A stretch of 64,000 bases of DNA. It comes from an uncultured Chlamydiales bacterium (GTDB lineage: Bacteria; Chlamydiota; Chlamydiia; Chlamydiales; JAAKFR01). A program made the translations under genes and the position numbers. How positions within the stretch are numbered: the stretch's first letter is position 1; every line of letters starts with the position of its first letter. Shown piece by piece: positions 51,089-52,496 of the stretch. The stretch lies in the NCBI GenBank assembly GCA_963699155.1, contig OY969414.1, forward strand, positions 1,867,757 to 1,931,756, given 5' to 3'. The notes beneath the pieces are model-generated. The model made no database searches and was not told where the DNA came from. It was given only the letters and a program-made list of their open reading frames with translations.

Positions 51089-51571
51089 TAGCGAGTTCCC
51101 TGGCGCGCCGAAGGTCGCTCGCGGCCCTCAACGGGCCGCTGCCACTCCCAACGGCGCTAGTAACCTCCACTCACCTGGTTCCGCTCGATGTCGAGCCTAC
51201 GACCTCGAAATCGCCGCCGATCTCATCGCCCAAGTAGACTTTTGATGGAAGAGTTTGAGTGGCCTAAGGGCGAGCCGTTGCGAAGCTTCGGCGAGCCCCC
51301 CACCCCGGCCTTCGGCCGAGGCGAAGCTTCGGCGAGCCCCCCACCCCGGCCTTCGGCCGAGGCGAAGCCGAGTGCTGAAGCCGCGGGTAAACTTTCTAAA
51401 TTAATTTGAGAAACGTCCAAACGGACTCGGCAATTGGCGCCGTTGGGAGTGGCAGCGGCCCATTGAGGGCCGCGAGCGACCTTCGGCGCCTTTCCCCCGC
51501 GCCTGTGACCAAGGCTGCGCCAGCAGCCGAGTGTCACAGCGACGGGCTTAATTTGTCGATTTTTTCACAGC
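51089..51571. repeat. Mosaic of GC-rich palindromic modules
   Basis: 51102-51157 recurs inverted at 51436-51490 and 52423-52477; 41-bp tandem duplication at 51280-51361; other modules are shared with 13304-13443. Confidence 0.88.
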
Positions 51572-51668
51572 CTCTCTGCGCTTCTAGCAGAGAGTAAGTA
51601 GTGGCGTAAGAGAGCTTCTAATTCTTTGCAGAAATCGCCTACAAATAGGCATGCTTTTCAATGAGCAA

Positions 51669-51747
51669 AAAAAATAACAGGATCGGCCGGCCCCAAATAA
51701 ATTTGGGGACCCCCCGGCCGGCAGGATCCCGCAAAGCGGGGCAGGAT
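51669..51747 (+). repeat. Left arm of the ~78-bp inverted repeat flanking the GxxExxY gene
   Basis: Reverse complement of 52277-52354 except for one extra A. Confidence 0.95.
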
Positions 51748-51752
51748 AGGAT

Positions 51753-52166
51753 ATGGTACATGCTCAGTTCACATCACTTATTTTAAAAACCTGTTTTGAT
51801 GTAGCCAATGAACTTGGAGTTGGTTTTCTAGAGAACGTTTATAAAAATGCTCTTGCTGTGGCTTTGAGAGAATCTGGCTTCAAAATCGAGATTGAAAAAC
51901 CTTTTGAGGTAATTTTTCACGGGAAACAGATAGGATTCTATATCGCTGATCTTGTTGTTCAAGAATGTGTAATCGTAGAAGCCAAATGCTGTAGAGCGCT
52001 ACTTCCCCAACATCAGGCTCAATTGATTAATTATCTTGCTATATCGAAATGTCCCATAGGATTGCTGATCAATTTTGGGAATAAGAGATTAGAAATCAAA
52101 CGTGTGCAACATCCGGATTACGAAAATTCAGAGGATCGGCTTGCCCCCGAAGGGGAACACAAATAA
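51753..52166 (+). CDS. GxxExxY family protein (PD-(D/E)XK nuclease-like)
   Basis: LGVGFLENVY, ADLVV...IVEAK, HQAQLINYL, GLLINFG. Confidence 0.92.
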   Translation: MVHAQFTSLILKTCFDVANELGVGFLENVYKNALAVALRESGFKIEIEKPFEVIFHGKQIGFYIADLVVQECVIVEAKCCRALLPQHQAQLINYLAISKCPIGLLINFGNKRLEIKRVQHPDYENSEDRLAPEGEHK

Positions 52167-52276
52167 AGAGCTCCCTCCCTTGAAAAAGAAAAAATAATGA
52201 CAATTGTATGAAGAAACATTCTTTTTCAAGGGAGAGAGCTCTTTATTTGTGTCACTTTGTGACGCAAGCCGACCCC
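52133..52276. repeat. Long hairpin overlapping the GxxExxY stop codon
   Basis: 52157-52190 vs 52219-52252: 34-bp inverted repeat with 1 mismatch, extended by TCGGCTTGC / GCAAGCCGA. Confidence 0.9.
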
Positions 52277-52354
52277 ATCCTGCCCCGCTTGCGGGATCCT
52301 GCCGGCCGGGGGGTCCCCAAATTTATTTGGGGCCGGCCGATCCTGTTATTTTTT
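52277..52354 (-). repeat. Right arm of the ~78-bp inverted repeat flanking the GxxExxY gene
   Basis: Reverse complement of 51669-51747. Confidence 0.95.
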
Positions 52355-52395
52355 ACCCATATAAGAAGTGCTTTTTGCTCAAATTTCTGATCGTA

Positions 52396-52496
52396 TGGAA
52401 GAGCTTGAAGCGGCCTAAGGGGCGAGCCGTTGGGAGCGGCAGCGGCCCATTGAGGGCCGCGAGCGACCTTCGGCGCGCAGGCGAGGGAACTTGCTA
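52396..52496. repeat. Outer right repeat of the GxxExxY locus
   Basis: 52423-52496 is an inverted copy of 51089-51157; 52396-52432 resembles 51245-51280. Confidence 0.85.

What the first reader, a model, noticed from the sequence alone, without database searches (positions are those of the whole stretch)
51089..52496. Lone GxxExxY nuclease-like gene within layered GC-rich inverted repeats: candidate non-canonical mobile or selfish system
Seen: the 1.4-kb gap after pdhC holds one AT-rich GxxExxY gene. Two inverted-repeat pairs enclose it: outer 51089-51157 / 52423-52496, and a near-perfect ~78-bp pair 51669-51747 / 52277-52354 whose left arm ends 5 nt before the ATG. A third pair forms a long hairpin over the stop codon (52133-52276). 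There is no transposase or integrase in the cassette. Established: GxxExxY proteins are a widespread, patchily distributed family with a predicted PD-(D/E)XK fold, and I know of no demonstrated function. Inference: the layout of a small nuclease plus matching structured ends parallels REP/RAYT or IS200-type logic. The protein may recognise these hairpins to move or spread them, or act on a structured RNA made from them.
Basis: partly seen in the sequence, partly recalled or inferred. Interest (0 to 1): 0.82.

Follow-up and report, generated by a model that had tools for sequence, protein, structure and literature searches.

The report
Nuclease gene cassette in palindromic arms
A small nuclease gene wrapped in matching inverted repeats is the one intact copy of a repeat family that has spread, mostly in gene-deleted form, around this chlamydia-like genome; relatives of the gene in many bacterial phyla share the layout, and I found no paper that describes it.

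Summary
A 137-aa GxxExxY/PF13366 gene (51753-52166) lies between near-perfect 79-nt inverted arms, and a nested hairpin spans its stop codon.

The outer GC-rich pair is not part of the system. It is a separate 53-nt dispersed repeat (35 hits genome-wide, with a third copy inside the gap).

The inner unit (about 51590-52425) is a real repeated element. Four other loci hold copies that share two identical in-frame deletions removing the catalytic core, and a sixth locus holds a remnant. Relatives have no gap after pdhC.

The arms are built on CAGGAT units. Inverted arrays of short units abutting the start and stop codons occur at 38 of 71 and 35 of 48 GxxExxY loci from many phyla, against 0 of 141 neighbouring ORFs.

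A second intact GxxExxY gene in this genome has arms of another unit type, whose terminus occurs 107 times, mostly in gene-less palindromes.

Best reading (0.45): a selfish cassette without a transposase, whose own nuclease acts on the arms, in the manner of REPIN/RAYT. ORF-bearing rRNA intervening sequences share the design, so an RNA-level role remains a serious rival.

This scan has already noted the pattern in at least 112 other genomes. My literature searches found no description of it.

The parts
49813..51081 (+). pdhC-type E2 acyltransferase gene (context; left border of the gap)
   Evidence: PF00198, PF00364 and PF02817. In relatives its 3' end abuts or overlaps the convergent downstream gene.
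51103..51157 (+). Copy 1 of a dispersed 53-nt GC-rich hairpin repeat ('family 1').
   Evidence: 35 BLAST hits genome-wide, usually in convergent pairs 270-1000 nt apart.
51274..51355 (.). Two tandem 41-nt GC-rich units (filler repeat)
   Evidence: family D2, 95% identity.
51398..51427 (-). End of another low-copy repeat ('family 3' terminal repeat)
   Evidence: The same 30-nt end flanks copies A, B and F of the cassette.
51437..51575 (-). Copy 2 of the 53-nt repeat plus its roughly 85-nt extension (full family-1 end)
   Evidence: 42 hits to the 149-nt query.
51590..51668 (+). Leader shared by all five cassette copies
   Evidence: 92-99% identity among copies. No sigma-70-like promoter was called on the + strand.
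51669..51747 (+). Left arm. It carries CAGGAT units separated by two GC-rich hairpin inserts and ends 5 nt before the ATG.
   Evidence: Identity among copies is 97.5-100%.
51753..52166 (+). GxxExxY / PD-(D/E)XK nuclease gene, 137 aa, intact
   Evidence: All 13 invariant residues of the 38-sequence alignment are present, including D66, E76 and K78. The AF2 model has pLDDT 89.9. The nearest folds are Cas4 and lambda-exonuclease-like.
52133..52276 (.). Nested long hairpin over the stop codon. It supplies the last 11 codons.
   Evidence: It is present in copies A, B and F and deleted in E. Its loop is inverted in F.
52276..52354 (-). Right arm, the complement of the left arm
   Evidence: Identity among copies is 97.4-100%.
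52355..52425 (+). Trailer shared by the cassette copies. Its right half resembles a module also found at 51245-51280.
   Evidence: (family D4).
52426..52478 (-).
52494..53585 (-). Convergent downstream gene for a membrane protein without a Pfam match (right border of the gap)

Best explanation
The unit at about 51590-52425 is the only intact copy of a small selfish DNA cassette. In it, a GxxExxY PD-(D/E)XK nuclease gene sits as the loop between two inverted arms built from short CAGGAT units.

Shown:
- The gene and its arms are one repeated unit.
- Copies with the catalytic core deleted have multiplied to other loci.
- The arms are kept better than the rest of the unit.
- The same design of an ORF bracketed by unit arrays surrounds GxxExxY genes across phyla.
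- A second GxxExxY gene in this genome has arms of another unit type, together with many gene-less palindromes that have the same ends.

Inferred:
- The arms are the element's cis-acting sites.
- The encoded nuclease binds the unit arrays, probably as a multimer, and cuts at or near the arms, either in duplex DNA or in an extruded hairpin.
- Host recombination or repair then copies the cassette, or its deleted and gene-less derivatives, into new or cognate sites. A PD-(D/E)XK enzyme can cut DNA but cannot join it.

This is REPIN/RAYT-like logic with a different enzyme. The outer 53-nt repeats are another miniature repeat family that merely piles up in the same gap.
For: 1. One unit, several copies. 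The inner arms hit only 6 loci (13 hits, one of them a stray 19-mer). Copies at G000 1276k, 1513k, 2185k and 2352k share identical deletions of gene nt 152-289 and 313-378. These remove aa 51-97, including D66, E76 and K78. Their flanks are unrelated and all lie between long open frames.

2. The arms are better kept. They are 97.4-100% identical among copies. The leader is 92-99%, the 5' part of the gene 95-96%, the hairpin 83-95% and the trailer 85-97%.

3. Family-wide trait.
- The upstream versus downstream inverted-repeat score is 30 or more in 38 of 71 loci, against 0 of 141 neighbouring ORFs.
- In a second set it is 30 or more in 35 of 48 loci.
- The arms abut the start and stop codons.
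- Unit motifs occur at least twice on each side in 37 of 117 loci, against 1 of 117 in the opposite orientation and 0 of 188 neighbouring ORFs. That motif was defined after seeing the data.

4. Unit cores match between the two arms at 95.8%, and spacers at 84.6%. The arms are therefore true inverted repeats, with extra constraint on the units.

5. One host holds several cognate pairs. The window gene has CAGGAT arms. Gene 2 (37% identical) has ACGCAAAG-type arms. A decayed third gene has CACAGAG arms.

6. Gene-less palindromes.
- The terminus of gene 2's arms occurs 107 times in this genome, 0 times in the backwards control, and 0-9 times in each of 20 relatives.
- Array pairs in cassette orientation number 43, against 4 in the opposite orientation.
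- CARGAT arrays give 9 against 0.

7. CAGGAT units fall in one half of the protein tree in 12 of 13 rows, across five phyla. Only 5 of 500 label shuffles gave as few changes.

8. No other enzyme is visible. There is no other Pfam-bearing ORF in the gap and no Y1 transposase over cut-off in the genome. The ends of the IS3-, IS21-, IS481- and IS630-like elements are unrelated to the arms.

9. The site is empty in relatives. The gap is 0 or less in 6 of the 7 loci where both genes were found.
Against: - No binding, cleavage or movement has been observed. The enzyme's role is pure inference.
- 33 of 71 and 13 of 48 loci scored below 30. Six of 9 full-length genes in relatives showed an array only downstream. 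The two-sided arms are therefore not universal.
- Unrelated S23p four-helix-bundle genes (PF05635) sit in the same kind of arms: 7 of 10 loci in this phylum scored 33 or more. The published Coxiella rRNA intervening sequence has tandem GACAGAT heptamers in its stem. The arms may therefore be a vehicle that does not depend on the nuclease.
- The borders of homology differ among copies: A, B and F extend about 55 nt further left than W and E. I saw no target-site duplication at 27 gene-less elements. Sharp transposon-like ends are lacking.
- A, B and F may have travelled inside another repeat (family 3).
- Left-arm mutations in the deleted copies are not compensated in the right arms.
- Shared deletions could also spread by gene conversion between copies.
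- Unit type and protein clade are linked by descent in any case, because related sequences share labels.
Confidence: 0.45

Rival explanations
1. RNA-level, intervening-sequence-like cassette. The arms matter because they pair in the transcript. The long stem is cut by RNase III, which makes an insertion into a transcribed region harmless and releases or silences the ORF message. DNA spread happens by ordinary recombination or transfer, and the nuclease has some other target.
For: - As a single strand the arms pair fully and bury the Shine-Dalgarno-like units next to the AUG.
- The ORF is the exact loop of the stem in many loci.
- The Coxiella 23S intervening sequence has the same design, with a 28-bp terminal stem and tandem heptamers before the ATG. 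It is cut by RNase III in vitro (PMC4990558, passages).
- S23p genes in this phylum have the same kind of arms.
- Spacers between units are 84.6% complementary between arms.
- No promoter was called in the leader.
- The upstream neighbour is co-oriented in 84 of 106 loci, against 57 of 90 for the downstream neighbour. This is weak evidence.
Against: - RNase III needs only duplex RNA. That explains neither the tandem short units nor their conservation over 50% protein divergence and across phyla, nor why cores are better kept than spacers.
- It does not explain the amplification of gene-less palindromes (107 termini).
- It does not explain why different cassettes in one host keep different units.
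Confidence: 0.25
2. Passenger model. The palindromic arms and their gene-less copies are moved by something else, such as a conventional transposase acting in trans, another repeat family that carries them, or slippage and recombination. The GxxExxY gene is cargo that landed in the loop.
For: - Copies A, B and F sit at the same junction inside a family-3 repeat with its own terminal inverted ends.
- The cassettes cluster with family-1 repeats.
- Two unrelated ORF families occupy the same kind of arms.
- Arm units also occur as tandem arrays.
- The genome holds active IS3-, IS21-, IS481- and IS630-like elements.
Against: - None of these IS ends resembles the arms, and the arm sequence hits only the six cassette loci.
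- W and E lie in other contexts than A, B and F.
- The tie between gene family and arm design holds in many phyla with different mobilomes.
- Unit type follows protein clade rather than host.
Confidence: 0.15
3. Host-serving gene. A small Cas4-like or repair nuclease, or a toxin or defence gene, is used by the cell, and the inverted repeats are only regulatory (terminator, attenuator, mRNA stabiliser).
For: - The fold is nearest to Cas4 SSO0001, lambda-exonuclease-like enzymes and MGME1.
- The catalytic residues are intact.
- One paper's pipeline reported a GxxExxY domain where CRISPRone had called cas4 (PMC8934634, passage).
Against: - There is no PADLOC match.
- Distribution is patchy and many copies are broken: 9 of 21 relatives have hits, several with stops or as fragments.
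- Dead copies have multiplied within the genome.
- The site is empty in relatives.
- There are no conserved neighbours.
Confidence: 0.1

Closest known systems
REPIN-RAYT systems (REP doublets and REP-associated tyrosine transposases; PMC3116915 and PMC3337134, seen as search listing and abstract starts only)
   Same: A single small enzyme gene is flanked by inverted copies of a repeat. Gene-less palindromic doublets of that repeat are dispersed in the same genome. No target duplication was seen. Each gene has its own cognate repeat type.
   Different: - The enzyme is a PD-(D/E)XK nuclease, not an HUH Y1 transposase (PF01797 not over cut-off).
- The arms are arrays of 6-8-nt units abutting the start and stop codons, not one REP hairpin.
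- The gene-bearing unit itself multiplies and decays.
- Distribution is patchy and crosses phyla, rather than vertical and single-copy.
ORF-bearing intervening sequences of 23S rRNA (Coxiella burnetii IVS with S23p; PMC4990558, abstract and passages read)
   Same: A cassette of about 430-470 nt with a small ORF as the loop of a stem made by terminal inverted repeats. Tandem heptamers sit just before the ATG (GACAGAT there; CACAGAT, CACGGAT or CAGGAT at GxxExxY genes). That paper calls the element selfish and of unknown origin.
   Different: - This element is not in rRNA but in an intergenic gap.
- The ORF is a nuclease, not a four-helix bundle.
- It is multi-copy, with deleted derivatives and gene-less palindromes.
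- RNase III processing has not been tested here.
Autonomous transposon plus MITE derivatives (established knowledge, recalled)
   Same: One intact copy exists alongside several internally deleted copies that keep the ends and have multiplied.
   Different: There is no DDE or other known transposase and no target-site duplication. The outer borders of homology vary among copies. The conserved inverted repeats are internal to the repeated unit.
Free-standing homing endonuclease genes, including the PD-(D/E)XK enzyme I-Ssp6803I (recalled, not checked here)
   Same: A lone nuclease gene could spread by cutting DNA and letting host repair copy it. A PD-(D/E)XK fold is compatible with that.
   Different: There is no intron or intein and no conserved insertion site across genomes. 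The inverted unit arrays and the amplified gene-less palindromes have no counterpart.
Cas4 / lambda-exonuclease-like PD-(D/E)XK nucleases (4ic1, 3syy, 1avq)
   Same: They share the core fold (TM about 0.5 normalised to the query) and the D...ExK catalytic motif.
   Different: This protein is only 137 aa. There was no hit to any solved chain by sequence (best E 0.84), and there is no CRISPR context.

Membership tests
GxxExxY protein family (PF13366 PDDEXK_3 / TIGR04256) | Profile match above the curated cut-offs | tested here: met
   125.7 bits against a cut-off of 22; 130.9 bits against a cut-off of 35.
GxxExxY protein family (PF13366 PDDEXK_3 / TIGR04256) | GxxExxY motif and the D...ExK catalytic residues | tested here: met
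   G24, E27, Y30, D66, E76 and K78 are invariant in the 38-sequence alignment, and the window protein has all of them.
GxxExxY protein family (PF13366 PDDEXK_3 / TIGR04256) | PD-(D/E)XK fold | tested here: met
   AF2 pLDDT 89.9. The top Foldseek hits are Cas4, lambda-exonuclease-like enzymes, MGME1 and Hjc.
REPIN-RAYT system | The enzyme is a Y1 HUH (IS200-like) transposase | tested here: not met
   The gene is PF13366. PF01797 finds nothing over cut-off in the whole genome (best 17.8 bits).
REPIN-RAYT system | The gene is flanked by inverted copies of the repeat | tested here: met
REPIN-RAYT system | Many gene-less inverted doublets of the same repeat occur in the genome | tested here: met
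   For gene 2 there are 107 termini and 43 cassette-oriented array pairs. For the window's CAGGAT type the numbers are modest: 9 pairs, 5 of them cassette copies.
IS200/IS605-type element | A TnpA(Y1) and/or TnpB gene with subterminal hairpins | tested here: not met
   There is no Y1 domain. The only ORF with a family match is the nuclease.
DDE transposon with MITE derivatives | A transposase gene, terminal inverted repeats at the very ends, and a target-site duplication | tested here: not met
   There is no transposase. The inverted arms are internal to the repeated unit and its borders vary. No duplication was seen at 27 gene-less elements.
ORF-bearing 23S rRNA intervening sequence | Inserted in helix 25 or 45 of the 23S rRNA gene | tested here: not met
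   The locus lies between pdhC and a membrane-protein gene. No rRNA family matched at 50900-52700.
ORF-bearing 23S rRNA intervening sequence | Terminal inverted repeats form a stem around a small ORF, with tandem short repeats before the ATG | tested here: met
   compared with passages of PMC4990558.
ORF-bearing 23S rRNA intervening sequence | Excision from the transcript by RNase III | not testable with these tools
   No RNA run is listed for this DNA.

The most novel reading that the evidence does not exclude
GxxExxY nucleases are the trans-acting enzymes of an unrecognised, phylum-spanning class of mobile palindromic cassettes. These cassettes would move without any transposase or integrase. 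The nuclease reads arrays of short units in the arms, cuts, and host repair copies the cassette and its gene-less derivatives. The long-puzzling ORF-bearing intervening sequences of rRNA would be the same kind of element landed in rDNA.
Probability: 0.35. Interest if true: 0.9.

Novelty: new variant of a known kind. Interest (0 to 1): 0.78.

Why it matters
GxxExxY/PF13366 is a very large family with no assigned function. Steczkiewicz 2012 lists it as 'Unknown' (PMC3424549, table passage), and only 3 papers in the searched library contain the family name.

This locus gives within-genome evidence that the gene and its arms behave as a replicating unit: one intact copy, four copies with the same catalytic-core deletion, a remnant, and a sister cassette with about a hundred gene-less arm ends.

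If the nuclease drives this, it would be a new enzymatic route to DNA mobility. It would also explain a class of bacterial palindromic repeats, and it would give a testable origin for rRNA intervening sequences. The sequence-specific nuclease and site pairs might also be useful as tools.

Tried and rejected
- RNA evidence: the look-up of sequencing runs listed no RNA holder and only two soil DNA runs with small shares (0.10 and 0.06). I did not lay them.
- Rfam at E up to 1 on 50900-52700: only generic hairpin and miRNA models on the stop-codon hairpin, all far below their gathering scores.
- PADLOC: no match for either intact protein.
- PDB by sequence: nothing (best E 0.84).
- Promoter scan: no sigma-70-like site on the + strand in the leader. 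The scan is crude.
Not confirmed.
- Target-site duplication: none seen by eye at 27 gene-less ACGCAAAG-type elements. Their flanks tend to continue the inverted repeat.
- The metagenome scan did not retrieve the 80-83% identical homologues P0002 and P0003 (best 58%). I could therefore not compare arms between very close cassettes.
- The outermost 12-nt complementarity beyond the 53-nt core (51089-51102 against about 52480-52496) is unique to this locus and too short to interpret.
- Orientation bias relative to neighbours is weak.
- I did not test the earlier claim that one residue tracks one base of the unit. My labelled sample (35 loci) is too small and is confounded by phylogeny.
- I did not run complex prediction or read laying.
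- One search failed on the format of a search term. I re-sent it in corrected form.
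Full report
WHAT IS THERE

The window is G000:C1:1867757-1931756 of a single-contig 2.40-Mb genome with 47.5% GC. The closest protein hits come from Chlamydiota MAGs.

After the pdhC-type E2 gene (49813-51081) comes a 1.41-kb gap, then a convergent membrane-protein gene (52494-53585, no Pfam match). 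The only ORF in the gap with a family match is 51753-52166 (+), 137 aa:
- PF13366 at 1.5e-36 and TIGR04256 'GxxExxY' at 2.7e-38.
- Six other ORFs in the gap have no Pfam match.
- The gene has 38.4% GC. The arms have 60%.

- Inner arms: 51669-51734 and 52289-52354, 66 nt and perfect. They extend to 51747 and 52276 with a single 1-nt indel.
- Stop-codon hairpin: a 34-nt pair at 52157-52190 and 52219-52252, inside a larger hairpin at 52133-52276.
- Outer pair: 53 nt at 51103-51155 and 52426-52478.

As a single strand, 51660-52365 folds at -337 kcal/mol, against -190 +/- 6.6 for shuffles (z = -22). The arms pair end to end, up to a few bases before the AUG.

THE OUTER REPEATS ARE A DIFFERENT THING

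- The 53-nt GC-rich core has a third copy inside the gap (51437-51489) and gives 35 BLAST hits genome-wide. These are usually convergent pairs 270-1000 nt apart, and most have no GxxExxY gene nearby.
- With an 85-nt extension the core forms a unit of about 140 nt with a defined end (42 hits to a 149-nt query).
The two IS1182 Pfam models find nothing over cut-off here, so I leave the family unnamed.
- The gap also holds two tandem 41-nt units (51274-51355) and one end of a low-copy repeat (51398-51427).
- The gap is therefore a pile-up of several repeat families.

THE INNER UNIT IS A REPEATED ELEMENT WITH DEAD DERIVATIVES

The arm sequence hits six loci and nothing else except a stray 19-mer. 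A MAFFT alignment of the six loci with 400-nt flanks shows the following:
- The shared unit runs from about 51590 to about 52425: leader, left arm, gene, hairpin, right arm, trailer.
- Copies at 1276k, 1513k, 2185k and 2352k all lack gene nt 152-289 (138 nt) and 313-378 (66 nt), with the same joints. This removes aa 51-97, which holds D66, E76 and K78.
- The 2185k copy has also lost the stop-codon hairpin.
- In the 2352k copy the loop of that hairpin is inverted.
- The 1964k locus is a remnant of about 105 nt, with one arm and the tip of the other.

Flanks beyond the unit do not align. All copies lie between long open frames.

Four copies with identical deletions at unrelated sites mean that a gene-dead form was copied after the deletions arose. 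The alternative is that the deletion allele spread by conversion among pre-existing copies. Either way, the DNA was copied non-reciprocally between dispersed sites.

Among copies the arms are 97.4-100% identical. The leader is 92-99%, the 5' part of the gene 95-96%, the hairpin 83-95% and the trailer 85-97%.

The window copy is the only one with an intact gene, and it keeps all 13 invariant residues of a 38-sequence alignment.

EMPTY SITES

In 6 of the 7 relatives' loci where both genes were found (same genus and family; pdhC 64-74% identical in protein), the two convergent genes abut or overlap, with a gap of -8 to -104 nt. In the seventh (G003) my script picked the second paralogue of the downstream gene. 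By the DNA coordinates the gap there is also only a few bases. The relatives are distant, so this shows insertion in this lineage but not the exact joints.

THE LAYOUT IS A FAMILY TRAIT

I fetched 79 loci from named genomes of many phyla. For each I scored a local alignment of the 150 nt before the start codon against the reverse complement of the 150 nt after the stop codon.
- 71 loci were usable. Eight were dropped for short flanks or missing ORF bounds.
- The median score was 34, against 16 for permuted pairs (upstream flank of one locus against the downstream flank of another).
- 23 of 71 exceeded the 99th percentile of the permuted pairs.
- Against 141 neighbouring ORFs of 80-400 aa in the same loci, a score of 30 or more occurred in 38 of 71 GxxExxY loci and in 0 of 141 controls (Mann-Whitney p = 8e-18).

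A second set came from metagenome contigs. I gave 61 of 76 loci, leaving out 15 fragmentary matches, and 48 were usable. Of these, 35 scored 30 or more. The permuted control is high in this set (86 of 472) because many loci share the same arm sequence.

The arms usually start within a few bases of the start and stop codons. They consist of two to five tandem units spaced 8-10 nt apart: CAGGAT, CACGGAT, CGCGGAT, CGCAGAT, CGCTGAT, CACAGAT or AGGGAT upstream, and their complements downstream.

With a unit pattern written after seeing these data, at least two units on each side occur in 37 of 117 distinct loci. The same flanks read in the opposite orientation give 1 of 117, and neighbouring ORFs give 0 of 188.

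The two arms match at 95.8% in unit cores and 84.6% in the spacers between units (45 loci). They are therefore true inverted repeats with extra constraint on the units.

The trait is not universal:
- 33 of 71 and 13 of 48 loci scored below 30.
- Of 9 full-length genes in this genome's relatives, 3 scored 59-87 and 6 scored 15-19. The six show an array right after the stop codon but none upstream.

THE WINDOW'S ARMS IN THAT LIGHT

Homologues at 50-58% identity have a simple arm of about 23 nt, ending in two units that run into the ATG. The window's left arm begins and ends the same way but carries about 56 extra bases between the units. These comprise two GC-rich hairpins and a further unit, and they are mirrored exactly in the right arm.

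An insert present symmetrically in both arms implies that one arm is copied from, or corrected against, the other. This is inference.

The stop-codon hairpin likewise looks like a nested insert. It pushes the right arm 110 nt away from the stop codon and supplies the last 11 codons.

OTHER CASSETTES AND GENE-LESS PALINDROMES IN THE SAME GENOME

PF13366 finds a second intact gene at G000:2249376-2249729. It encodes 125 aa, is 37% identical to the window protein, and lies between mutS-like and uvrC-like genes. Fragments lie at 1712k and 1534k.
- Gene 2 is bracketed by arms of a different unit type, 8-mers of the ACGCAAAG kind.
- The decayed gene at 1712k is bracketed by CACAGAG units.

A 16-base terminus of gene 2's arms, allowing one mismatch, occurs 107 times in this genome (47 forward, 60 reverse). 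The backwards control gives 0, and each of 20 relatives gives 0-9.

Arrays of this unit form 43 cassette-oriented pairs, against 4 in the opposite orientation. All 4 are due to tandem neighbours. Most pairs are gene-less palindromes of about 95 nt, with the same ends as gene 2's arms and a 28-37-nt loop that begins with a Shine-Dalgarno-like stretch.

For the window's unit type the numbers are smaller. There are 9 cassette-oriented CARGAT array pairs, against 0 in the opposite orientation and 0 for 30 permuted units. Five of the 9 are the cassette copies, and the rest are gene-less palindromes.

A family of three gene-less elements of about 200 nt (1490k, 2172k, 2283k) has arms like those of a gene-bearing but broken cassette in a same-genus genome (G003:C5).

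So one host genome keeps at least three cognate gene and arm types side by side.

THE PROTEIN

- The AlphaFold2 model has pLDDT 89.9. It is a minimal PD-(D/E)XK core.
- The best Foldseek matches are Cas4 SSO0001 (E 4e-5, TM about 0.5), lambda-exonuclease-like enzymes, MGME1, and lower down Hjc and tRNA-splicing endonucleases.
- No solved chain matches by sequence, and there is no PADLOC model.

On a protein tree of 72 rows, 12 of 13 CAGGAT-armed genes fall in one half. They come from five phyla. The window's gene sits in a starred clade of 11 rows, 7 of them CAGGAT-armed. All unit labels together need 29 changes, against 33.9 for shuffled labels (0 of 200 shuffles as low). Related sequences share labels, so this shows that arms and gene travel together. 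It does not show recognition.

HOW IT MOST LIKELY WORKS

Shown: the unit is or was copied between sites; its arms are the best-kept part; the design is tied to this gene family across phyla; and unit types differ between cassettes within one host.

Inferred:
- Tandem short units that stay conserved over about 50% protein divergence, and are better kept than the spacers, look like protein-binding sites rather than mere stem-formers.
- Different units in one cell argue against a single host factor.
- The only gene on board is a nuclease.

I therefore favour a selfish cassette whose nuclease reads the arm arrays and cuts, with host repair or recombination doing the copying (confidence 0.45). Two observations fit repair-mediated copying better than a cut-and-paste transposase:
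- The borders of homology vary: copies A, B and F share about 55 more bases on the left than W and E.
- No target duplication was seen.

Neither observation is proof.

THE STRONGEST COUNTER-EVIDENCE

S23p four-helix-bundle genes (PF05635) were found in 9 of 150 genomes of this phylum, though not in this genome. Seven of 10 such loci sit in the same kind of unit-array inverted repeats, with their own units.

The published Coxiella 23S rRNA intervening sequence has a 28-bp terminal stem, tandem GACAGAT heptamers before the S23p start codon, and is cut by RNase III in vitro (PMC4990558, abstract and passages).

Two unrelated ORF families in one design means the arms may be a vehicle with an RNA-level role (rival, 0.25), or may be moved by something else (rival, 0.15). 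A host-serving nuclease with regulatory repeats is the least likely reading (0.10).

WHAT IS KNOWN

Searches of the held library gave the following:
- 'GxxExxY': 3 papers, none about function.
- 'PDDEXK_3': 1 paper, and PF13366/TIGR04256/IPR026350: 2 papers. The 2012 survey lists the function as 'Unknown'.
- Intervening sequence, 23S rRNA, four helix bundle and inverted repeat: 22 papers holding at least 3 of these terms. Of the 15 listed, the only relevant one is the Coxiella paper.
- Heptameric repeats, intervening sequence, selfish and S23p: the same paper.
- REPIN, RAYT and PD-(D/E)XK: 32 papers hold at least two of the three terms. None of the 10 listed holds the nuclease term.

I found no description of GxxExxY cassettes. 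Subscription journals are not in that library.

This scan has noted the same pattern before on other DNA: 120 notes in at least 112 genomes. Those notes are unchecked AI notes. I reproduced the core claim independently and tested the S23p link.

VERDICT

The element fails the defining tests for REP/RAYT, IS200/IS605, DDE transposon plus MITE, and rRNA intervening sequence, but it works most like the first and looks most like the last. I rate it a new variant of a known kind, with interest 0.78.

Noticed in passing
window 51103-51157, 51437-51575, 52426-52478 (also about 13367-13443): A GC-rich 53-nt hairpin repeat with an 85-nt extension forms a miniature-element-like family. It gives 35-42 hits genome-wide, usually as convergent pairs, and often lies next to or around CAGGAT-type palindromes. 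No cognate transposase was found.
   Followed up: partly
G000:C1:2249317-2249880: A second intact GxxExxY gene lies between mutS-like and uvrC-like genes. Its arms are ACGCAAAG-type 8-mers, and the right arm is followed by about three tandem 41-nt units. The arm terminus occurs 107 times in the genome, mostly in gene-less palindromes of about 95 nt.
   Followed up: partly
G000:C1: 297477, 383517, 522771, 706033, 835362, 1033498, 1073719, 1156959, 1347141, 1989809, 2371280: Eleven palindromes of about 75 nt have CTCTGTG units on the left and CACAGAG units on the right. This is the opposite orientation to the gene-bearing CACAGAG cassette at 1712k. Their loops are AT-rich.
   Followed up: no
G000:C1: 131891, 276666, 542062, 1469759, 1534804: A family of elements of about 250 nt has ACACAGAG/ACTCAGAG unit arms around a long central hairpin. 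One copy sits directly after the GxxExxY fragment at 1534634-1534750.
   Followed up: no
G000:C1:520306-520771 and 2337160-2338058: The ACGCAAAG-type arm end also occurs as tandem arrays: 10 copies at a 50-nt period and 8 copies at a 125-nt period.
   Followed up: no
window 51398-51427; G000:C1: 740814, 1275754, 1276518, 1588888, 2351830: A low-copy repeat has a 30-nt terminal inverted end, and each end lies directly next to a short palindrome in the flank. Cassette copies A, B and F are joined to it at the same position.
   Followed up: partly
G000:C1:2352226-2352372 (copy F): The loop of the stop-codon hairpin is inverted relative to copies W, A and B. This points to recombination between the hairpin's own arms.
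   Followed up: no
L201, L205, L206, L207, L208, L211, L212 (Chlamydiota genomes): S23p / 23S_rRNA_IVP (PF05635) genes are bracketed by inverted arrays of their own short units, for example 6-mers of the GGGCAC kind and 7-mers of the GTTCGGA kind. The design matches that around GxxExxY genes.
   Followed up: partly
window 52494-53585 and 53593-54783 (- strand): Two tandem paralogous membrane proteins (363 and 396 aa) have no Pfam match. Homologues sit at the same place in relatives.
   Followed up: no
window 44884-46303 and 57880-60547: An IS3-like element (at least 10 copies in the genome) and an IS21-like element (5 copies, 99.9-100% identical) lie in the window, so transposition in this genome is recent.
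   Followed up: partly
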